From assembly GCA_000004985.1 (NCBI GenBank), contig GG738848.1: DNA of 64,000 nucleotides. One strand, given 5' to 3'. The notes under the pieces are model-generated. The model saw only the letters and a program-made list of their open reading frames with translations, made no database searches and was not told the DNA's origin. Made by a program: the position numbers and the translations under genes. This document shows, in pieces, positions 23,603 to 31,356 of this stretch (within the stretch, counting starts at the first letter, position 1; each line of letters opens with the position of its first letter). The stretch comes from Naegleria gruberi (Eukaryota).

Positions 23603-24541
23603 TTATAAAAAGCAACCTAACCAAGAACCCTTATAGAAACCTTTCAATCCCTCTTGTTGATACATTTTCTTTACACAATCTGGGTAGCTGGAATAGGTTC
23701 TTCCTTGATCACCAATGTACCTGCTTAATGAGAGAGTGAATGGTGAAGTTGTGGCATCGAAAATGACACTCGTCGAAAGTTCCTCAATTGTTTCTAAAGA
23801 ATCAACTGTTTCATCATCCAAGAAATAATAATCATTTCCAATAACTGATTCAATTACGGAACGAATAGCAACAGATAAACCAAATTTGTAAACTTGTGTA
23901 CCAGCTTGTTGCAACATTGCCCAACCATAGCCACGATAGAGACCTTTAACTCCATTTTCAGAGTAAATTTGAACAGCAGTTTCAACAAATCCTCTTTGTT
24001 TCTTCATATCATCAAATCTCTTATGTCTGGCGAGAGAGGCAACTATTATAGGATGAGTCACAGCACTTGACAGCATATTATCAACAATTGATGAACCAAG
24101 CCTAATAGCCAAACTATTGCTAGAAGTCAAGGGCTGGAAAATGTGTTCTCTAACAGTTAATCCATAGATAAAACTTGCTCCAATTTGAAATACTGAAGGT
24201 AACCATTCCTTCTTTCCCAATAATCCAAGAATTCCTTCTTCGGAATAAACTTTAGATAATAAATCAAAAATTCCTCCATTATAAAAAGGCTTTCCAGTAC
24301 CATTATTTGAATATTCTTCATGAACATAATCCATAACCATTCTCTTCTCCGAAATTAAAAACAACATGGCGTAATAGGAGAAAGCAGAACCATTAAGAGC
24401 AAGCTTTGTATAATTGGAAGTCAAGAATGGAATGGATTGTAAACTTTCCATTGAATGATCGCGTTCCAAGCCTCCATCAAGGGTAATTTCATCAGGGTCA
24501 ACAAGAGCAAGACTTTTGTTCATTTTTTTTAAAATTAACAA
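23603..24541 (-). CDS. Divergent mitochondrial-carrier-like protein (possibly MTCH-like)
   Basis: Weak carrier-like repeats (GVKGLYRGYGWAMLQ; EGLKGFYKGSWLGCFL) and about 300 aa. Low similarity; the call is tentative. Confidence 0.3.
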   Translation of the reverse strand: MLILKKMNKSLALVDPDEITLDGGLERDHSMESLQSIPFLTSNYTKLALNGSAFSYYAMLFLISEKRMVMDYVHEEYSNNGTGKPFYNGGIFDLLSKVYSEEGILGLLGKKEWLPSVFQIGASFIYGLTVREHIFQPLTSSNSLAIRLGSSIVDNMLSSAVTHPIIVASLARHKRFDDMKKQRGFVETAVQIYSENGVKGLYRGYGWAMLQQAGTQVYKFGLSVAIRSVIESVIGNDYYFLDDETVDSLETIEELSTSVIFDATTSPFTLSLSRYIGDQGRTYSSYPDCVKKMYQQEGLKGFYKGSWLGCFL

Positions 24542-24745: not shown

Positions 24746-27090
24746 ATGCCTCCAAAGACCTCCTCAAAAACAACCTCTTCTGATGATGTTGATGAAAGCA
24801 GTGATGTAACCACAAAAAAGACGGTAACAAAATCGACCACCACCAAAACAACAAGTACTTTTGTTAATAAGCCTTTCAAGGTACCTCTAAAATCACCACC
24901 AAAGACTGCAACTTCATCTTCAGCAACAACAATATCTGCTGCTTCATCTTCTTCATCTTCTACAAAGAGTGCTGCTAAAAGTAGTGTTACTGCAAAGGCT
25001 AAACCACTCTTTGAACAGTCCCAAATTTTAGCTCCGAGCGATCCATCTTTGGATGATTCTTTTACTTTTGATTCTCCATTGAAAAACAAGAAGAAGAATG
25101 TGGAAAAGGAAGATGATGAGGATAGTGATAATGATGTAAATGAAAAAAAGAGAAAATTGGAAAGCATTTCAAAAGCAAAGAAGGAAAGTGAAAAAGTAAA
25201 ACCCACTAAAAAATTGAAAGAATCATTGAGTACAGTTTCCGATGAAAAGAAACCCTTCTCTCACAAGGAAATTAAACCAAAATCATCAAACAAGACTTTT
25301 ATTATTGGTGTAAGTGGTGGAGACTTTGCTCAAAAATCAGAAGTTGTGAATATCATTGAAAAGGTAGGTTTGAGAATATATAACTCGTATAACGATCCTT
25401 TTCCTTCATTGAATTAGTTATCAAAAAATACAGAATACGAATATGTGGAAATTGGTAGTTCAAACTTTGAAAGTTATACTCATCTGGTTTGTCTTGATCC
25501 TAACCCAAAGAAAACCATCAAGTTAATTTATTCTATTGCTTTGAATGTTCCAATAATCAAATCATCTTGGTTATATGAGAGTGAAAAATGTAATTATTTT
25601 GTAAAGGAAAGTGATTTTTATTTCGCTCAATATATCAGATCAAGAAGTGAGGGAATTTTGAAAGGAAAAAGATGTTATATTTTAAGAGGAGAAGTGACAT
25701 TTCCATCACCAGAAATATGTGAAAGATTTATTGAACTAAGTGGAGGAGCTTGTGTGGAAGATATTACTCGAGCAAATATTATACTTTCAACAACAGGAGC
25801 AAAAGATTTTGATAATATCATTCCAAGACACACTTCCAGTATGCCCCTATTCCCAGTGGTAACTGTTCGTTGGTTAGTTGACTGTGTTGATAAACAACAA
25901 TATCAAGATCCAAATGAGTATAAGGTATGTGTTTTTAATAATATTTACATTGTGGATTTACAATTCGAAAGGATGATTACTTTTACAGTGAAGCTTGTGT
26001 TTTGAAAGAAAGAGTGCTTGCTGAAAAATCAGCTCGAAAGCATATTGGATGTTTGAGATTATTGACTGATATTACTTGTTCAGCTAATATTATCCCATTA
26101 TATGCAGACAAAAAAAGTATTGTACTGGGAAGAGCAGCTACAGATGTGGATTTCACTGTAGATACTGAAAACTCAAAGAAGAATCCTGTTATTTCTAGAA
26201 TGCACGCTAAAATTGTACAGTTCCAGCAAGAAAGTAACAGCCAAAGTAAGGAAACCATACTCAAGTGGAAGCTCATTGATTCTTCCTCGAATGGTACCTT
26301 TGTAAATAATGTTAAGGTTAAGGAAGCCGTTTTAGCTAATGGAGATATTATTTGTTTCGGTCATTCCAAGGCCTCAGTTAAAGTAGGAGAACAAATTCCA
26401 TTCGCAAATACCAAATGTAAATATGTGTTTGAGACTGAGGATATTGTTTCAAATGAAGAAGCCGAGAAGGAAAAGGAGAGATTAAGAAAAGAGAATGAAC
26501 TAATGAGATTGGAAATTAATGGTCTAAGAGATTACAAACAAAAATCAAGTATGGTAAACCATCAAAAAGAGAAGGAAATTATACGTCTGCAAGAATTACT
26601 TTCCAAAAATCAGAGAAAAGAAATTGTCGAATTTCCACTCTGTCACAAGCTTTATGTATTGGATACAAACGTTCTCGTTGAAAATATTTCAATCCTTGAG
26701 AATCTGTTAAAATCAGCCAATATTACATGCCTTATCCCATATACAGTTATGGTTGAGTTGGATAAATTAAAGACGAGAACAGGTTCAGTTGCCATTAAGG
26801 CAAGAGAAGCAACCAGATTCTTGGAGGAATGTTTCGAAAACAAGACTTATCCAAATTTGATGGGTCAACTTCCAAACCAACAACTGAAAGGTATTGAAGA
26901 TGGAGGTGTTTTTGTTTCATCTGCTGATGATAACATTATCAATTGTTGCCTCTATTTCAAAGATCACGTACTCAAACGAAAGGAAAAGAATCATGAATTA
27001 ATTCTTTTAACATTTGATAAGAATATGAGAGTTAAAGCAGGTCTCTTAAAGATTGTTTCTCCTTCAATTCTTCCATTCAACAATAATTGA
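24746..27090 (+). CDS. Tandem BRCT + FHA + coiled-coil + SMG6/Swt1-type PIN nuclease domain protein, about 747 aa; join(24746..25363,25418..25924,25972..27090)
   Basis: A K/S/T-rich N-terminus. BRCT 1: KTFIIGVSGGDF...YTHLVCLDPNPKKTIKLIYSIALNVPIIKSSWLYESEKC. BRCT 2: KGKRCYILRGEVTF...RANIILSTT...PVVTVRWLVDCV. FHA: IVLGRAATDVDFTVD...VISRMHAKIVQF...WKLIDSSSNGTFVNN. Coiled coil EKEKERLRKENELMRLEINGLR. PIN: LYVLDTNVLVEN...YTVMVELDKLK...DDNIINCCLYF...LLTFDKNMRVKA, matching SMG6 PIN VPDTN / ELDGL / DDLILSCCLHY / LLTDDRNLRVKA. The track ORFs 24683, 25445 and 26002 are joined by 54-nt and 47-nt introns in phase. Confidence 0.6.
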
Positions 27091-27183
27091 AGCTTGTTCA
27101 TGTATAATGGAATTGATTCTCCTCCAACATTTCGATAGAGAAGATTAAATAAAATCATAATTGATTGCAATATTACAAAAAAA

Positions 27184-28593
27184 ATGAGTGACAATGCTAG
27201 TAGTAATACTTCCACATCATCATCAGGTGCAGGAACAACAAATAATTCTTCAGTAGAAGAAGAAGAAGGTGGATCATCCCTCATCAAGAAACTTTTAGGT
27301 TTTATTTTTCTCTTTTATTTATCCTTCGGAATTATTAATCCTGTCAATATTGAACTCTTTGAAAAGATTAATTCTGTTGGAAGTGTTGATGGAAAACATT
27401 CCAAGCATACAGCTTCATTATTTGGTGCATTGTTTGCACTTCCTGGATTAATATTCTTCTTTGTGAGTCCGGTGATTGGAAATTTATCTGATCGATTGGG
27501 AAGAAAATTGTTCCTTACCTTGTTTACTTTTTGTTATACTTTAACATTTGGAATTTACTATTTATTGTGTCATGTTGTGACAAGTCCAGACGAAGAATTG
27601 AATGAAATTTTCATCTATGTCAAGTATAATGGATTGAAATTTTACATTGTTGCTAAAATTATTCAAGGATGCAGTTTGGATATTATTCCATTATGTAATT
27701 CCTATATTGCTGATAATTCTAAAAAGGAGGATTTTGCAACATACTTTTCATATATCTTGGCAGCTATGGGTTTGGCCACAGCCATTGGACCAATGGTGAG
27801 TGGATTTGTGGTGAAGAATTTTGGAATGACACAAGTATTTCAATTGATTTTTATCACTTCTAGTATTACAACATTGTTTGCTGCAAAGTTTGTTAAGGAG
27901 AATGCAAAGAATGACGCTATTCAACACCAAGAATCTTCACTCATCGAGAAGGTTACTACGCCATTCAAGTCTCTGTACAATATTCTTACTCAAGGAGATT
28001 CTGTTTTGATTTCATTGATAATTTCTAAATTGTTAAGCTCGTTTATTTCAGTTGGATTCTTTTGTATTGTTACACAATTTACAAGAATCAAATATTCATT
28101 TGGACCTACTGAAAATGGCTACGTCTTGACACTTATTGGAATAACTGCCATTCTTTCAAATTCCGTTCTATCCAAATTGATAATGTACCTCTCAAAAGGA
28201 AAGGAAACTAATGGATTGATTATATCAGGTGTAGCCAATGCCTTATTCTTCCTTTCTTTTGTGGTGTGTGGAAATGGCGCCTACGTATACTATGGAACTG
28301 TTTTCTTCCTGTTCGGTGCTAAAGAGGATCCACTCAGGTCTGCTCTCATTTCCAAGGTATTCAATGATCCAAATCAACAAGGAGTATTGAATGGATGTTT
28401 AGGATCTATTTCCACAGTTGGAAGAGTAATATCCCCAATCATCTTTTCATCATTGTTAGATATTTTCACAACGAGTGAAACCATGCCTCGTATTGTGGAT
28501 GCTCCATTCATTGCCTTGACAATTACACAAGTTATTTGTGTATTGTTTGTAGTGAGAGCAAAACACTTGATTGAAAAGAATAAGGGAGAATAA
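27184..28593 (+). CDS. Major facilitator superfamily transporter (HIAT1/MFSD14-like)
   Basis: 12 predicted TM segments. The MFS signature GNLSDRLGRK lies after TM2. 469 aa, single exon. Confidence 0.75.
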   Translation: MSDNASSNTSTSSSGAGTTNNSSVEEEEGGSSLIKKLLGFIFLFYLSFGIINPVNIELFEKINSVGSVDGKHSKHTASLFGALFALPGLIFFFVSPVIGNLSDRLGRKLFLTLFTFCYTLTFGIYYLLCHVVTSPDEELNEIFIYVKYNGLKFYIVAKIIQGCSLDIIPLCNSYIADNSKKEDFATYFSYILAAMGLATAIGPMVSGFVVKNFGMTQVFQLIFITSSITTLFAAKFVKENAKNDAIQHQESSLIEKVTTPFKSLYNILTQGDSVLISLIISKLLSSFISVGFFCIVTQFTRIKYSFGPTENGYVLTLIGITAILSNSVLSKLIMYLSKGKETNGLIISGVANALFFLSFVVCGNGAYVYYGTVFFLFGAKEDPLRSALISKVFNDPNQQGVLNGCLGSISTVGRVISPIIFSSLLDIFTTSETMPRIVDAPFIALTITQVICVLFVVRAKHLIEKNKGE

Positions 28594-29027: not shown

Positions 29028-29909
29028 ATGGGTATTGTTGGATCAAGGTGCGGAAAGCATTACAAGATTCAGGCGAAAATATCGAGTGAAGTTGTGGAGA
29101 ATGGTCAAACGGTTCTATTCAATGTTTGCAATCGCACTGAACAACAACAACAAGAGGAAACACCAAATGGTGATGATCAATCTGTTACTCGCCATGCCAG
29201 CTCACAAGAATTTTCAGCAAATAGTAACAGCCAAAAACAACTGCTAAGAGGTTCATCATCAAGTTTATCATCAACCTCATCATCAGAATTATTAACATCG
29301 AACGGAACTGCAGAGAGCAGTGGAAATTTAAAATCAATTCTAGGTTCTAATAAGAGCTCACCCACTGCAAGACCATTACGTTCAGTTACCTTAATATTAG
29401 ATACAAAGGAAAAGGAAGAAATATTTGCATCATCAACAATAAGCAAACGTAAAAAAGGAAGAAGAAAAACTGATAAAGACAATGATCCAATAGAGGAAGA
29501 CTGCATAGATATTAGGGTTCTCTCAAGAAGAGCTTCTCTGCCCTCAATGGTGAGTTTTGAAGGTTCTCTCTCCACCACACCAGATAGAAAAGTAACAGGA
29601 AACTTCTTCTACAGTGTATTGGAGGCACCTTACTCACCAGCAGATAGTACCAAAACAGCTCCAACCCTATCAACTGTTTGTTTAGAATCTCCATCTATTA
29701 GAATCATTCCTCCATATGAAGATTTATTGGAATGTGATGTTTACCCATTGCCAAAGAAACATGCACTCAAAGATGAAAAAGCTAGAAAGTTGCAAGAAAA
29801 GAGATTAAATCCAGTCAAAACTTGGTCAAAGGATGAATTGAGAAAGTTAGCAAAGAAGACAAAGCGTGCTACTAATCCAATTGCAGAAGATTTAATGATT
29901 TACAAGTAG
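29028..29909 (+). CDS. Ser-rich hypothetical protein with an N-terminal MGxxxS myristoylation-type motif
   Basis: MGIVGSRCGK start, long Ser/Thr-rich low-complexity middle, KKGRRK basic patch. No recognisable catalytic domain. Confidence 0.4.
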   Translation: MGIVGSRCGKHYKIQAKISSEVVENGQTVLFNVCNRTEQQQQEETPNGDDQSVTRHASSQEFSANSNSQKQLLRGSSSSLSSTSSSELLTSNGTAESSGNLKSILGSNKSSPTARPLRSVTLILDTKEKEEIFASSTISKRKKGRRKTDKDNDPIEEDCIDIRVLSRRASLPSMVSFEGSLSTTPDRKVTGNFFYSVLEAPYSPADSTKTAPTLSTVCLESPSIRIIPPYEDLLECDVYPLPKKHALKDEKARKLQEKRLNPVKTWSKDELRKLAKKTKRATNPIAEDLMIYK

Positions 29910-29913
29910 AAGA

Positions 29914-31356
29914 TCATGATCTCTTTCTTTGTTTGTTTGGAGGAGAAGGTGTACCTGCCACTTCTTCATCACTTGCATTTGAAAGAACATGTCGTTGGGC
30001 AATCATTCCTTCACTGTCATCTTGAACACCATATTCATTGCTTCCACCATTACTTGAATTTGAACTGAAAGATTGGACAACACCCAATTGAATATATCTT
30101 TCATTTTCACCATTAATACCAAATGAAGCACATGGCATATCTTCATTAAGGAATTGATTATGAAGAGATTTTCCTGATGGATTAGATATAATCTCTGGTG
30201 TGACAAATCTATCTTGATTATCTATATATATGGATGATTCATCAAGGTGACTTCTCTTTCTCTTATTAATAGGGGTAGAGAATTGATCACCAGAAGAGAA
30301 ATTATCATCAACCATTTGATTGTCATTAACTTGTTGCTGTTGTTGACTAGCTCTTCTGGATGAAACTTGTTGGTTTGTAGTAATAGTTGAAGTTTCTGCA
30401 GTAGCCATTGTTTCATCATCTGAATCAATAGTTGCCATTAAAAATACAATTTCTACATCCTTTGCTTGTGATTCTGATCTTATTACAATTGGATCTCCTC
30501 TATTTCTTGTCATTGAAAAATGAATATTATATTCAGATAATTCACAAAATCCTATTAATGCCTTTAAATCTTTAAAACTAAAGGTCATTTCACTTTCTGC
30601 TTGAATTGTTTGTTCTGAACCTGGTACTGTTCCTGCAGGTGGGGTTGGTCTATTACTTGCATCATTTTGAACAAATGCCTGTTGAGCTACATTGAATGAT
30701 TCCAAATTTACAGTATCAATAGCAAGTGATGTTTGATTTCCATTTTGTTTTTCTCCCTTTTCAGCATATGATTTCATTTGAATATAGTATTGTGTAAATC
30801 TTCCATCAGTTTGTGATAAATTTGGTTGATTTTGTTGTGATGTAGTAATAACAACTCTCTTTCCCAAAAGAAAGGTAATATCACCAGCCAATTTACCAAA
30901 TGGTGATAATAAATTAGATAAATATGAAGAATTGACTTCAAATTCAAAATCTCTAGAGAGATCATGTTCTGGATTGACCACATCACATGGTGAACAATTA
31001 ATTTGATAAATCTTTTGTACTTGAGAAAGTCCAAACGAATCAAATATAACTTGACTATTATTCCTATCTAGTGTAATTTTCAATTGATCTAAATTAGCAG
31101 CATTCTTAAATACGTGAACAACATTCTTCAGAGTTAGCCTAACAATTTTCGGAGCAGTTTGTAAAAAGGAATATCTATCAAAAAACGAATGTAAAAATGT
31201 GAACCTAGCAAATGTTGATTTTGAAGCATTGACAGTAACAAAAGAAACCCTATCAGGTTTCATATCAAATATTACTTCCTCTCCGACTTTGGCCAAACAA
31301 TTTATCATGTTGGCAAATGTTTTAATATGTTGTCTATTCTTTAATCCAGCATCCAT
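29914..31356 (-). CDS. Rad9-like checkpoint clamp (9-1-1) subunit
   Basis: N-terminus MDAGLKNRQHIKTFANMINCLAKVGEEVIFDMKPDRVSFVTVNASKSTFARFTF aligns with the Rad9 start ([30 protein letters not shown]...LRTVNSSRSAYACFLF). It is PCNA-like in length, with an S/Q-rich C-terminal tail carrying a basic NLS (PNKQRKRS). Confidence 0.6.
   Translation of the reverse strand: MDAGLKNRQHIKTFANMINCLAKVGEEVIFDMKPDRVSFVTVNASKSTFARFTFLHSFFDRYSFLQTAPKIVRLTLKNVVHVFKNAANLDQLKITLDRNNSQVIFDSFGLSQVQKIYQINCSPCDVVNPEHDLSRDFEFEVNSSYLSNLLSPFGKLAGDITFLLGKRVVITTSQQNQPNLSQTDGRFTQYYIQMKSYAEKGEKQNGNQTSLAIDTVNLESFNVAQQAFVQNDASNRPTPPAGTVPGSEQTIQAESEMTFSFKDLKALIGFCELSEYNIHFSMTRNRGDPIVIRSESQAKDVEIVFLMATIDSDDETMATAETSTITTNQQVSSRRASQQQQQVNDNQMVDDNFSSGDQFSTPINKRKRSHLDESSIYIDNQDRFVTPEIISNPSGKSLHNQFLNEDMPCASFGINGENERYIQLGVVQSFSSNSSNGGSNEYGVQDDSEGMIAQRHVLSNASDEEVAGTPSPPNKQRKRS

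What the first reader, a model, noticed from the sequence alone, without database searches (positions are those of the whole stretch)
24746..27090. Unusual domain fusion: tandem BRCT + FHA + coiled coil + SMG6-type PIN endonuclease, near a Rad9 gene
Three track ORFs (24683, 25445, 26002) join in phase through 54- and 47-nt introns into one product. It combines phosphopeptide-binding modules typical of DNA-damage mediators (BRCT-BRCT and FHA, as in NBS1/MDC1) with a PIN domain. That PIN domain conserves the SMG6/Swt1-like acidic motifs (VLDTN, ELDKLK, DDNIINCCLYF, LLTFDKNMRVKA). Coupling a PIN RNase/nuclease to DNA-damage phospho-reader modules is, to my knowledge, not a described architecture. 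The Rad9 clamp subunit gene lies 3 kb downstream (29914-31356), which hints at a DNA-damage-linked neighbourhood.
Basis: partly seen in the sequence, partly recalled or inferred. Interest (0 to 1): 0.65.

Follow-up and report, generated by a model that had tools for sequence, protein, structure and literature searches.

The report
Phospho-reader-tethered PIN nuclease of Naegleria
One real Naegleria gruberi gene joins two phosphoprotein-reading modules of the DNA-damage-signalling type (tandem BRCT and FHA) to an intact SMG6/SWT1-class RNA-cutting PIN domain. The combination is conserved in heterolobosean amoebae, sits in the databases under a wrong name, and has never been studied.

Summary
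Exons 24746-25363, 25418-25924 and 25972-27090 (+) splice in frame through GT..AG introns of 54 and 47 nt into a 747-aa protein. Its layout is a disordered N-terminus with a KKRK motif, tandem BRCT, FHA, a roughly 53-residue helix, then PIN_4. All four SMG6 catalytic acidic residues are kept (D606, E637, D694, D724), as are the phospho-binding residues of BRCT1 and FHA.

The window is N. gruberi NEG-M. RefSeq XP_002681986.1 uses the same two introns. It then wrongly splices out the stop codon and fuses the gene to the downstream MFS transporter, which explains the name 'multidrug-efflux transporter'.

Orthologues with the same architecture occur in N. fowleri, Willaertia magna, Acrasis kona and four unnamed assembly or metagenome contigs. 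An exhaustive search of 1.84 billion representative proteins listed no other FHA+PIN protein among its 150 best hits.

'Not a described architecture' is only partly right. FHA+PIN defines plant Parallel Spindle 1, and a 2011 paper already listed this Naegleria protein as the sole non-plant case. The BRCT addition is undiscussed.

The Rad9 neighbour is real but not conserved, so it is not evidence.

Most likely function: an endoribonuclease targeted by phosphorylation marks, probably to damaged chromatin. This is inferred, not shown.

The parts
24746..25363 (+). Exon 1. Residues 1-206: S/T/K-rich disordered N-terminus (S 20%, K 18%, T 13%); SPxK sites at residues 50 and 110; KKRK putative nuclear localisation motif at residues 134-137; conserved PFSHK.IKPKS motif; start of BRCT1 including strand beta1 and S190-G191.
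   Evidence: The N-terminal motifs FTF(D/E)SP.K, KKRK(L/F) and PFSHK..KPKS are shared with N. fowleri and P0002. The start codon is the same as in XP_002681986.1.
25364..25417 (+). Intron 1, 54 nt, GTAGGT...TTAG, phase 0. It interrupts BRCT1.
   Evidence: The junction sequence IIEKL|SKNTEYEY is colinear with IIKKLSKNSEYEC of N. fowleri. RefSeq uses the same intron.
25418..25924 (+). Exon 2. Residues 207-375: the rest of BRCT1 (K238, T239, K241 in KKTIK) and BRCT2.
   Evidence: Pfam BRCT/BRCT_2, E=7e-8. MDC1 BRCT alignment places K241 at K1936 and K238 at R1933. AF2 model pLDDT about 90, with Foldseek top hits MCPH1, BRCA1 and MDC1 tandem BRCT, target TM-score 0.63-0.76.
25925..25971 (+). Intron 2, 47 nt, GTATGT...AAAG, phase 0.
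   Evidence: The alternative acceptor at 25988 gives a frameshift with stops. The junction EYK|DDYFYSEAC matches EYLDDYFYSGEC, EYRDEYYYSAEC and EYKDEYYYNEEC in relatives.
25972..27090 (+). Exon 3. Residues 376-747 plus the TGA stop: linker, FHA, long helix, PIN. The true C-terminus is ...KIVSPSILPFNNN*.
   Evidence: This is a single ORF. The C-terminus matches N. fowleri (...KIYAPSNFE*) and Willaertia (...KICSPSVLPFQ*).
26047..26436 (+). FHA domain fold, residues about 401-530 (Pfam core 425-505). Phosphothreonine-binding signature G428-R429, S450-x-x-H453, N482-G483.
   Evidence: Pfam FHA, E=9.3e-14. These residues are conserved in relatives covering this region. The model shows a beta-sandwich at model residues 233-362. 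Nearest FHA-only relatives are FHA-coiled coil-RING proteins.
26452..26610 (+). Long helix, residues 536-588: a probable coiled coil.
   Evidence: AF2 predicts one continuous helix at model residues 368-420. The best heptad register has 8 of 16 hydrophobic a/d positions. A helical E/K/Q-rich spacer of variable length is present in all family members. Oligomerisation is inferred.
26653..27057 (+). PIN_4 domain, residues 603-737. Acidic tetrad: D606 (26662-26664), E637 (26755-26757), D694 (26926-26928), D724 (27016-27018).
   Evidence: Pfam PIN_4, E=1.1e-25. phmmer to the SMG6 PIN structures 2dok/2hww, E=3e-7, and family profile E=1e-17. Foldseek to 2dok E=2e-8 at 31% identity. The tetrad is conserved in the N. 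fowleri, Willaertia, Acrasis P0006, P0008, P0009 and L007 proteins.
27056..27138 (+). Not a real intron. RefSeq XP_002681986.1 removes this 83-nt GT..AG stretch, losing the stop codon at 27088-27090 and fusing the gene to the MFS transporter ORF 27184-28593.
   Evidence: N. fowleri has two separate genes, of 745 aa and 468 aa. The orthologue C-termini match the unspliced reading.

Best explanation
The locus is one protein-coding gene of Naegleria gruberi. It encodes a 747-aa protein, probably nuclear, in which a catalytically intact SMG6/SWT1-class PIN endonuclease sits at the end of a phospho-reader arm.

Proposed mechanism:
1. The tandem BRCT binds a phosphoserine motif. Its pocket is of the BRCA1/MDC1/MCPH1 type (S190-G191, T239, K241).
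2. The FHA domain binds a phosphothreonine motif (R429, S450, H453, N482).
3. Together they tether the protein to partners or chromatin marked by checkpoint or cell-cycle kinases. The most likely place is a site of DNA damage or replication stress, because the nearest relatives of both reader modules are DNA-damage proteins.
4. The long helix probably dimerises the protein.
5. The PIN domain then cuts single-stranded RNA locally, for example nascent transcripts or the RNA of R-loops, using metal ions held by D606, E637, D694 and D724.

Shown here: the gene model, the domain identities, the conservation of catalytic and phospho-binding residues, and the conservation of the whole architecture across Heterolobosea.

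Inferred: nuclear localisation, RNA as substrate, dimerisation, the identity of the phospho-ligands, and the link to DNA damage.
For: Gene model.

Domains: Pfam; PDB by sequence; AF2 model with mean pLDDT 90.2; Foldseek.

PIN:
- All four SMG6 active-site residues are kept (residue list in PMC5499597).
- They are conserved across the family.
- SMG6 PIN cleaves ssRNA and not ssDNA (PMC5499597).
- Yeast Swt1 is an endoribonuclease that prefers single-stranded regions (PMC2613419).

BRCT:
- Best structural matches are phosphopeptide-bound tandem BRCTs: MCPH1-gammaH2AX 3szm (E=5e-11), BRCA1, MDC1-gammaH2AX, PTIP-gammaH2AX.
- The family profile also hits fission-yeast Brc1 and Mdb1.
- K241 aligns with MDC1 K1936.
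- S190-G191 sits at the beta1/alpha1 junction of the model.
- One of the nearest BRCT-only relatives is named microcephalin by its source.

FHA: the signature residues are conserved. Of the seven nearest FHA-only relatives scanned, five are FHA-coiled coil-RING proteins, the RNF8/CHFR type of architecture.

Nucleus: a KKRK(L/F) motif is present in the three Naegleria-type sequences and KKRK in Willaertia.

Selection: the full architecture is kept from Naegleria to Acrasis at 26-36% identity.
Against: No experiment or expression data exist for any family member.

BRCT and FHA domains are not confined to DNA-damage signalling. ECT2, FCP1 and Ki-67 are examples from general knowledge.

The closest known FHA+PIN protein, plant PS1, acts in meiotic spindle orientation rather than repair.

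The residue matching MDC1 R1933, which reads the gammaH2AX carboxyl terminus, is Lys in both Naegleria species and Gln in P0002. It is Arg only in Willaertia and Acrasis.

I could not check whether Naegleria has an H2A.X tail of the SQ(E/D)-hydrophobic type.

Rad9 adjacency is not conserved.

The model's pTM of 0.51 gives no fixed arrangement between domains.
Confidence: 0.45

Rival explanations
1. Transcription-coupled nuclear RNA surveillance. The protein is the heterolobosean functional counterpart of SWT1. Its BRCT and FHA domains read phosphorylated RNA polymerase II CTD, or other phosphorylated transcription or export factors, and bring the PIN endoribonuclease to defective nascent mRNPs. 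DNA damage is not involved.
For: The nearest PIN-only relatives that carry a function name are called SWT1: Musca XP_005186135 at 62 bits and a mosquito SWT1 at 128 bits. An SMG6-like protein scores lower, at 48.6 bits.

Acrasis orthologues are auto-annotated as Swt1.

SWT1 in some lineages carries a WW domain, another phospho-Ser/Pro reader (P0164 has Pfam WW+PIN_4; PMC3710099).

A BRCA1 BRCT-RNA polymerase II pSer5-CTD complex (9qpx) is among the top structural matches.

Yeast Swt1 is a nuclear mRNP quality-control endoribonuclease.
Against: The feature that defines SWT1, a C-terminal dyad of HEPN domains (PMC3710099), is absent. The protein and its orthologues end about 10 residues after the PIN domain.

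The tandem BRCT and FHA are closest to DNA-damage proteins (MCPH1, BRCA1, MDC1; RNF8/CHFR-like), not to known CTD readers such as FCP1.

I could not check whether Naegleria also has a canonical SWT1.
Confidence: 0.2
2. A regulator of cell division like plant Parallel Spindle 1. The FHA and BRCT domains read CDK- or Polo-type phosphorylation, and the PIN domain degrades specific mRNAs to control spindle or division events. Naegleria has an unusual closed mitosis and builds its microtubule cytoskeleton anew on differentiation.
For: FHA+PIN_4 is the architecture of PS1, whose loss causes parallel spindles in male meiosis II (PMC2581889; PMC3071787).

S-P-x-K (minimal CDK consensus) sites lie in the disordered N-terminus at residues 50 and 110. 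The second sits in the conserved FTF(D/E)SP.K motif.

MCPH1, a close BRCT relative, also regulates mitotic entry (general knowledge).
Against: No long plant-type FHA+PIN protein is among the 150 best hits of the exhaustive profile search. This gives no sign of specific kinship with PS1.

PS1 has no BRCT domains. Its FHA and PIN are separated by about 1000 residues of biased sequence.

The molecular mechanism of PS1 is itself unknown.
Confidence: 0.12
3. A DNA nuclease rather than an RNase. The PIN domain cuts DNA structures such as flaps, forks or ssDNA at lesions, as the PIN-like FEN1/EXO1/GEN1 nucleases do. BRCT and FHA recruit it in the way FHA recruits PNKP or aprataxin.
For: The PIN-like superfamily includes DNA-repair nucleases (PMC5499597). 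Phospho-reader domains fused to a DNA end-processing enzyme are a known design (PNKP, APTX, APLF; general knowledge).
Against: The domain belongs to the VapC-like PIN_4 group, not the FEN1/XPG group. Characterised members are RNases. SMG6 PIN does not cut ssDNA (PMC5499597). Swt1 is an endoribonuclease. PhoH2 PIN is an RNase (PMC5499597).
Confidence: 0.08
4. Gene-model artefact. The BRCT, FHA and PIN parts belong to two or three adjacent genes that only appear to join in frame.
For: No transcript data were available here. The RefSeq model of this very locus does contain one false intron.
Against: BRCT1 is split by intron 1, so exon 1 and exon 2 cannot stand alone.

FHA, helix and PIN lie in a single ORF in N. 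gruberi.

BRCT1, BRCT2 and the start of FHA lie in a single ORF in Willaertia, and in P0002.

Intron positions differ between genera while the protein stays colinear.
Confidence: 0.02

Closest known systems
Plant Parallel Spindle 1 (AtPS1/PSL)
   Same: It is the only characterised protein family that combines an FHA domain with a C-terminal SMG6/SWT1-like PIN (PINc) domain (PMC2581889, PMC3071787).
   Different: PS1 has no BRCT domains. Its FHA is at the N-terminus and is separated from the PIN by about 1000 residues of biased sequence. It is confined to plants and acts in meiosis II spindle orientation. Several PSLs have lost catalytic Asp residues. No PS1-like protein appeared among the 150 best hits of the exhaustive search, so a shared origin of the fusion is not supported. 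I could not obtain a PS1 sequence for a direct test.
SWT1 (yeast Swt1, human SWT1/C1orf26, insect SWT1)
   Same: The PIN_4 domain has the same acidic tetrad. SWT1-named proteins are the nearest function-named PIN-only relatives. Some SWT1 proteins also carry a phospho-reader, a WW domain. Swt1 is a proven endoribonuclease of nuclear mRNP surveillance.
   Different: SWT1 is defined by a C-terminal dyad of inactive HEPN domains (PMC3710099), which is absent here. SWT1 has no BRCT or FHA.
SMG6 (EST1A), the NMD endonuclease
   Same: Its PIN domain is the best match among solved structures: family profile E=1e-17, Foldseek E=2e-8 at 31% identity. D1251, E1282, D1353 and D1392 are all matched.
   Different: There is no EST1/14-3-3-like TPR region and no evidence of an NMD context. 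The reader modules here are BRCT and FHA.
NBS1/Xrs2 and MDC1/Mdb1 DNA-damage mediators; MCPH1
   Same: FHA plus a phosphopeptide-binding tandem BRCT in one polypeptide. The BRCT pair is structurally closest to MCPH1, BRCA1 and MDC1.
   Different: Those proteins are non-enzymatic scaffolds. The domain order differs: FHA-BRCT-BRCT in NBS1, and FHA at the N-terminus with BRCT2 at the C-terminus in MDC1. Here the order is BRCT-BRCT-FHA, followed by a nuclease.
RNF8/CHFR-type FHA-coiled coil-RING ligases; FHA-enzyme fusions PNKP, APTX, APLF
   Same: The FHA followed by a coiled coil and then a C-terminal effector mirrors the FHA-CC-RING proteins, which are the nearest FHA-only relatives. The design logic, a phospho-reader recruiting an enzyme, is that of PNKP and APTX (general knowledge).
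   Different: The effector is a PIN nuclease instead of a RING or a DNA end-processing enzyme. Orthology to RNF8 or CHFR was not tested. Human RNF8 and CHFR FHA structures were not among the best 60 PDB sequence hits.

Membership tests
PIN_4 / VapC-like PIN nucleases (SMG6-SWT1-PhoH2 group) | PIN fold matching Pfam PF13638 above its gathering score | tested here: met
   90.9 bits against a cut-off of 21.9, E=1.1e-25. Foldseek and profile hits to the SMG6 PIN.
PIN_4 / VapC-like PIN nucleases (SMG6-SWT1-PhoH2 group) | Four acidic active-site residues (SMG6 D1251, E1282, D1353, D1392) | tested here: met
   D606, E637, D694 and D724 align to them. They are conserved in orthologues. The residue list comes from PMC5499597.
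PIN_4 / VapC-like PIN nucleases (SMG6-SWT1-PhoH2 group) | Metal-dependent endoribonuclease activity | not testable with these tools
   Needs a biochemical assay.
SMG6 orthologue | EST1/14-3-3-like TPR region N-terminal to the PIN | tested here: not met
   No EST1 or EST1_DNA_bind Pfam hit. The N-terminal part is BRCT-BRCT-FHA.
SWT1 orthologue | PIN domain closest to SWT1 proteins | tested here: inconclusive
   The PIN-only hits that carry a function name are called SWT1, and the top PIN-only hits outscore an SMG6-like protein by 13-19 bits. No phylogeny was made.
SWT1 orthologue | C-terminal dyad of (inactive) HEPN domains after the PIN (PMC3710099) | tested here: not met
   The protein ends 10 residues after the PIN. 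The same holds in the N. fowleri, Willaertia and Acrasis proteins.
Plant PS1/PSL | FHA and PINc in one polypeptide | tested here: met
   This protein was listed as the sole non-plant case in PMC3071787.
Plant PS1/PSL | Specific sequence kinship (orthology) with plant PSL proteins | tested here: inconclusive
   No PS1-like protein is among the 150 best of 1099 hits in the exhaustive search. No PS1 sequence was available for a direct comparison.
Phosphopeptide-binding tandem BRCT (BRCA1/MDC1/MCPH1 class) | Two BRCT repeats packed as one unit | tested here: met
   AF2 pLDDT about 90 over this region. Foldseek E=5e-11 with target TM-score 0.73-0.76 to the MCPH1 tandem BRCT, 0.68-0.73 to BRCA1 and 0.63-0.67 to MDC1. 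Profile E=1e-15 to BRCA1.
Phosphopeptide-binding tandem BRCT (BRCA1/MDC1/MCPH1 class) | pSer pocket: S/T-G at the beta1/alpha1 junction and Lys in alpha2 of BRCT1 | tested here: met
   S190-G191 follows strand beta1 of the model. T239 and K241 align to MDC1 T1934 and K1936. Conserved in the family. The correspondence to BRCA1 S1655/G1656/K1702 rests on general knowledge.
Phosphopeptide-binding tandem BRCT (BRCA1/MDC1/MCPH1 class) | gammaH2AX-type reading of a C-terminal carboxylate by Arg (MDC1 R1933) | tested here: inconclusive
   This position is K238 in N. gruberi, K in N. fowleri, Q in P0002, and R in Willaertia and Acrasis.
FHA phosphothreonine readers | G-R, S-x-x-H and N-G signature on the FHA beta-sandwich | tested here: met
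   G428-R429, S450/H453 and N482-G483. The beta-sandwich appears in the model.
NBS1/MDC1-type DNA-damage mediator | FHA plus tandem BRCT, together with partner-binding motifs (MRE11/ATM-binding, SDT or TQXF repeats) | tested here: inconclusive
   FHA plus BRCT2 is present, but in a different order and with an enzymatic C-terminus. Only two SQ/TQ sites exist. Partner motifs were not searched systematically.

The most novel reading that the evidence does not exclude
Heterolobosean amoebae have a dedicated endoribonuclease that is recruited to DNA damage. A gammaH2AX/MDC1-style phospho-reader arm (tandem BRCT plus an FHA whose nearest relatives share the RNF8/CHFR-type architecture) delivers an SWT1/SMG6-class PIN RNase to broken or stalled chromatin. 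There it removes nascent RNA or R-loops. If so, RNA clearance at lesions is hard-wired into one polypeptide, something that other eukaryotes achieve with separate factors.
Probability: 0.3. Interest if true: 0.65.

Novelty: new variant of a known kind. Interest (0 to 1): 0.45.

Why it matters
If the inferred mechanism is right, this would be the first case of a PIN-type RNase coupled directly to DNA-damage-style phospho-readers. That would give a simple, testable handle on how RNA is removed at damaged or stalled chromatin.

It also corrects the record in three ways:
- The N. gruberi database entry is a chimera named 'multidrug-efflux transporter'.
- The plant literature still states, as late as 2025, that FHA+PIN proteins do not exist outside plants.
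- A conserved family exists in Heterolobosea, including the pathogen N. fowleri (XP_044557073.1). I found no counterpart of the whole architecture in animals.

The limits are clear. Everything functional is inference, the organisms are non-model, and each domain on its own is ordinary.

Tried and rejected
Word-indexed protein searches. These returned few relatives. A low-complexity N-terminus swamped the first, and the second missed even Willaertia. The family picture therefore rests on the exhaustive HMMER search.

I re-ran it with the exon 3 and exon 2 translations plus relatives.

Alternative acceptor at 25988 for intron 2. Rejected because it shifts the frame.

MAFFT alignment A4 with BRCT-only fragments. 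The fragments were misplaced onto the PIN region, so I dropped them and rebuilt the alignment as A5 for structure prediction.

AlphaFold-database fold search for whole-architecture matches. The library was not available.

Direct test of kinship with plant PS1. No PS1 sequence could be obtained from paper supplements.

Rad9 as functional context. Rejected, because the synteny is absent in N. fowleri and Willaertia.

Reading the RefSeq 1220-aa BRCT-FHA-PIN-MFS protein as real. Rejected.
Full report
WHAT IS IN THE SEQUENCE. Joining 24746-25363, 25418-25924 and 25972-27090 removes two GT..AG introns of 54 nt (25364-25417) and 47 nt (25925-25971). The result is an in-frame CDS of 2244 nt encoding 747 aa. 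The other candidate acceptor for intron 2, at 25988, breaks the frame.

SOURCE ORGANISM AND EXISTING ANNOTATION. The product is identical over residues 1-736 to GenBank EFC49242.1 / RefSeq XP_002681986.1 / UniProt D2V1Y8 of Naegleria gruberi NEG-M. The window is therefore N. gruberi genomic DNA.

That database model is 1220 aa long and is named 'multidrug-efflux transporter'. It uses the same two introns. It then removes a third stretch, 27056-27138, and with it the TGA at 27088-27090. It reads 15 residues of intergenic DNA and runs into the MFS transporter ORF 27184-28593 (MFS_1 Pfam E=1.6e-29).

This fusion is an artefact, for two reasons:
- N. fowleri has two separate genes at the syntenic place, of 745 aa and 468 aa.
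- The C-termini of the N. fowleri and Willaertia proteins (...KIYAPSNFE*...KICSPSVLPFQ*) match the unspliced N. gruberi reading ...KIVSPSILPFNNN*.

IS IT ONE GENE? Yes, on comparative evidence.
- Both exon junctions are colinear with relatives: IIEKL|SKNTEYEY against IIKKLSKNSEYEC, and EYK|DDYFYSEAC against EYLDDYFYSGEC.
- Intron 1 lies inside BRCT1.
- FHA, helix and PIN are one ORF in N. gruberi.
- In Willaertia magna the N-terminus, both BRCTs and the start of the FHA are one uninterrupted ORF (L001 10001-11116). That species' two introns instead split the FHA and PIN domains.
- P0002, from an ENA contig, likewise has BRCT-BRCT-FHA-helix in one ORF.

The protein stays colinear while intron positions differ. 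This excludes separate genes.

DOMAINS. Pfam on the spliced product gives PIN_4 (603-737, E=1.1e-25), FHA (425-505, E=9.3e-14) and BRCT/BRCT_2 (284-374, E=7e-8, with two BRCT stretches).

A profile of nine family members against PDB sequences gives:
- SMG6/EST1A PIN, E=1e-17
- BRCA1 tandem BRCT, E=1e-15
- MCPH1, E=6e-14
- PTIP, BARD1, fission-yeast Brc1, MDC1 and Mdb1, with weaker scores
- a series of FHA domains

An AlphaFold2 model of residues 169-736, built with a 41-sequence alignment, has mean pLDDT 90.2 and pTM 0.51. The domains are confident but the arrangement between them is not fixed.

Foldseek against the PDB puts phosphopeptide-bound tandem BRCTs on top:
- MCPH1-gammaH2AX 3szm, E=5e-11, target TM-score 0.73
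- BRCA1, including the pSer5-CTD complex 9qpx
- MDC1-gammaH2AX 2azm
- PTIP-gammaH2AX 3sqd
- the SMG6 PIN 2dok, E=2e-8 at 31% identity

Between the FHA and the PIN, the model has one continuous 53-residue helix (residues 536-588). It shows a moderate heptad pattern.

The first 168 residues are S/T/K-rich. They carry a KKRK(L/F) motif, two S-P-x-K sites, and a PFSHK..KPKS motif. The KKRK(L/F) motif and the second S-P-x-K site (FTF(D/E)SP.K) are shared by the Naegleria-type sequences; Willaertia has KKRK and PFSH...KPKS.

FUNCTIONAL RESIDUES. In the phmmer alignment to SMG6 (2hww), D606, E637, D694 and D724 align to D1251, E1282, D1353 and D1392. This is the active site listed in the PIN superfamily classification. 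That paper also records that SMG6 PIN cuts ssRNA and not ssDNA (PMC5499597).

The tetrad is kept in the N. fowleri and Willaertia proteins, Acrasis P0006/P0152, P0008, P0009, and the L007 contig protein. One Acrasis paralogue (P0007) has Asn at the D1353 position.

In BRCT1, S190-G191 follows strand beta1 of the model. T239 and K241 align with MDC1 T1934 and K1936. Together these form the phosphoserine pocket of this BRCT class. K238 occupies the place of MDC1 R1933. That position is Arg in Willaertia and Acrasis and Gln in P0002.

The FHA keeps G428-R429, S450-x-x-H453 and N482-G483.

DISTRIBUTION. I ran a profile of the family against 1.84 billion representative proteins, using exhaustive HMMER. 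It gave 1099 hits at E<=0.001 but only 7 below 1e-30.

I re-scanned the 150 best with separate BRCT, FHA and PIN models, with the cluster members fetched added to the set. The combinations BRCT+FHA+PIN, FHA+PIN and BRCT+FHA occur only in the following:
- N. gruberi
- N. fowleri (XP_044557073.1)
- Willaertia magna (ABK040_009853)
- Acrasis kona (KAL0478389 and KAL0480520, named 'Swt1', and KAL0486804)
- four unnamed proteins: P0002 and P0003 (partial ORFs, the latter clustering with the N. fowleri protein), P0008 and P0009

For the unnamed P0008, P0009 and P0010, the missing domains lie in neighbouring ORFs of the same contig:
- A BRCT ORF lies upstream of P0008 on JGI contig Ga0401357_00261.
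- BRCT ORFs lie upstream of P0009.
- A helix-PIN ORF with an intact tetrad follows P0010 on L007.

All named carriers are Heterolobosea. Identity between Naegleria and Acrasis is 26-36%, so the architecture is old within that group and is maintained.

NEAREST SINGLE-DOMAIN RELATIVES.
- PIN. Some of the best PIN-only hits have names or taxa, and these are insect SWT1 or SWT1-like proteins and amoebozoan PIN proteins. An SMG6-like protein scores lower (P0144).
- FHA. Five of seven scanned hits are FHA-coiled coil-RING proteins, the RNF8/CHFR type of architecture.
- BRCT. The hits include a protein its source calls microcephalin, and proteins with multiple BRCT domains.

WHAT IS KNOWN. FHA plus an SMG6/SWT1-like PINc domain is the signature of plant Parallel Spindle 1, which is required for spindle orientation in male meiosis II. 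Its molecular mechanism is unknown (PMC2581889).

Cigliano et al. [quoted passage not shown] Naegleria gruberi' (PMC3071787). That is this locus. It is the only paper in the library that mentions it. A 2025 paper still states that FHA+PIN does not occur outside plants.

Neither the PIN superfamily classification nor the HEPN/Swt1 analysis mentions a PIN fused to BRCT or FHA. The HEPN analysis defines Swt1 as a PIN plus a dyad of inactive HEPN domains, sometimes with a WW domain. The Naegleria protein ends 10 residues after the PIN, so it is not a canonical Swt1. It has no EST1 region, so it is not SMG6.

No PS1-like protein is among the 150 best hits. Common descent of the FHA-PIN fusion with plants is therefore not supported, but I could not test it directly.

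RAD9. The Rad9 gene is real (29914-31356, minus strand, Pfam E=4e-39). It is separated from this gene by the MFS transporter gene and an unknown ORF at 29028-29909. No Rad9 lies within 10 kb of the orthologue in N. fowleri or in Willaertia. In a eukaryote this adjacency carries no functional weight.

MECHANISM. The best-supported reading is an active, metal-dependent PIN endoribonuclease whose location is set by two phospho-reader modules. The tandem BRCT reads pSer and the FHA reads pThr. The helix probably dimerises the protein, and a basic motif probably sends it to the nucleus.

The nearest relatives of both reader modules work in DNA-damage and checkpoint signalling. I therefore rate recruitment to damaged or stalled chromatin as the most likely context, at about 0.45 for the whole statement.

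Three alternatives remain open:
- transcription-coupled nuclear RNA surveillance, like SWT1 (0.2)
- cell-division control, like PS1 (0.12)
- DNA as the substrate (0.08)

None of these functional steps has been shown. They are inferences from domain identity and residue conservation.

VERDICT.

The thing is a new variant of known kinds: a PIN_4 RNase with a BRCT-BRCT-FHA reader arm. It is conserved in Heterolobosea, mis-annotated in N. gruberi, and has been mentioned once in passing. Interest is moderate. The domain logic is familiar, since a phospho-reader recruiting an enzyme is a known design. The specific pairing with an RNase is new, and it offers a direct experimental test of RNA cleavage at phospho-marked chromatin.

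Noticed in passing
window 27056-28593 (+): RefSeq XP_002681986.1 / EFC49242.1 ('multidrug-efflux transporter', 1220 aa) is a chimeric gene model. A false 83-nt intron (27056-27138) removes the stop codon of the BRCT-FHA-PIN gene and fuses it to the separate MFS transporter gene (27184-28593). N. fowleri annotates two genes.
   Followed up: yes
window 29914-31356 (-): Rad9 checkpoint-clamp subunit gene (Pfam Rad9, E=4e-39). Its adjacency to the BRCT-FHA-PIN gene is not conserved in N. fowleri or Willaertia.
   Followed up: yes
window 29028-29909 (+): A 293-aa serine-rich ORF between the MFS gene and Rad9, with no Pfam match. It ends 4 nt before the 3' end of the convergent Rad9 gene (29909 and 29914). 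Whether it is a real gene is unknown.
   Followed up: partly
window 23603-24541 (-): Mitochondrial carrier family gene (Mito_carr, E=4e-18), divergently oriented upstream. The roughly 200-nt gap to the ATG at 24746 probably holds both promoters.
   Followed up: partly
Acrasis kona KAL0486804 (P0007): This paralogue of the family has Asn at the SMG6-D1353 position and ELV instead of ELD. It may be a catalytically dead partner, recalling SMG5 versus SMG6.
   Followed up: partly
P0164 (Malaya genurostris SWT1) and PMC3710099: Insect SWT1 combines a WW domain with the PIN_4 domain. Pairing an SWT1-type PIN with a phospho-Ser/Pro reader is therefore not unique to Heterolobosea. This supports the transcription-surveillance rival.
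   Followed up: no
L001 10001-12195; L007 2289-3789; L002 5306-7116: Intron positions in this gene differ between genera. In Naegleria they lie in BRCT1 and after BRCT2. In Willaertia and in the P0002/L007 organisms they lie inside the FHA and at the start of the PIN. This shows intron turnover within Heterolobosea.
   Followed up: partly
PMC12403409 (2025), PMC2581889 (2008): The plant PS1 literature states that FHA+PIN proteins are absent outside plants. The heterolobosean family contradicts this.
   Followed up: yes
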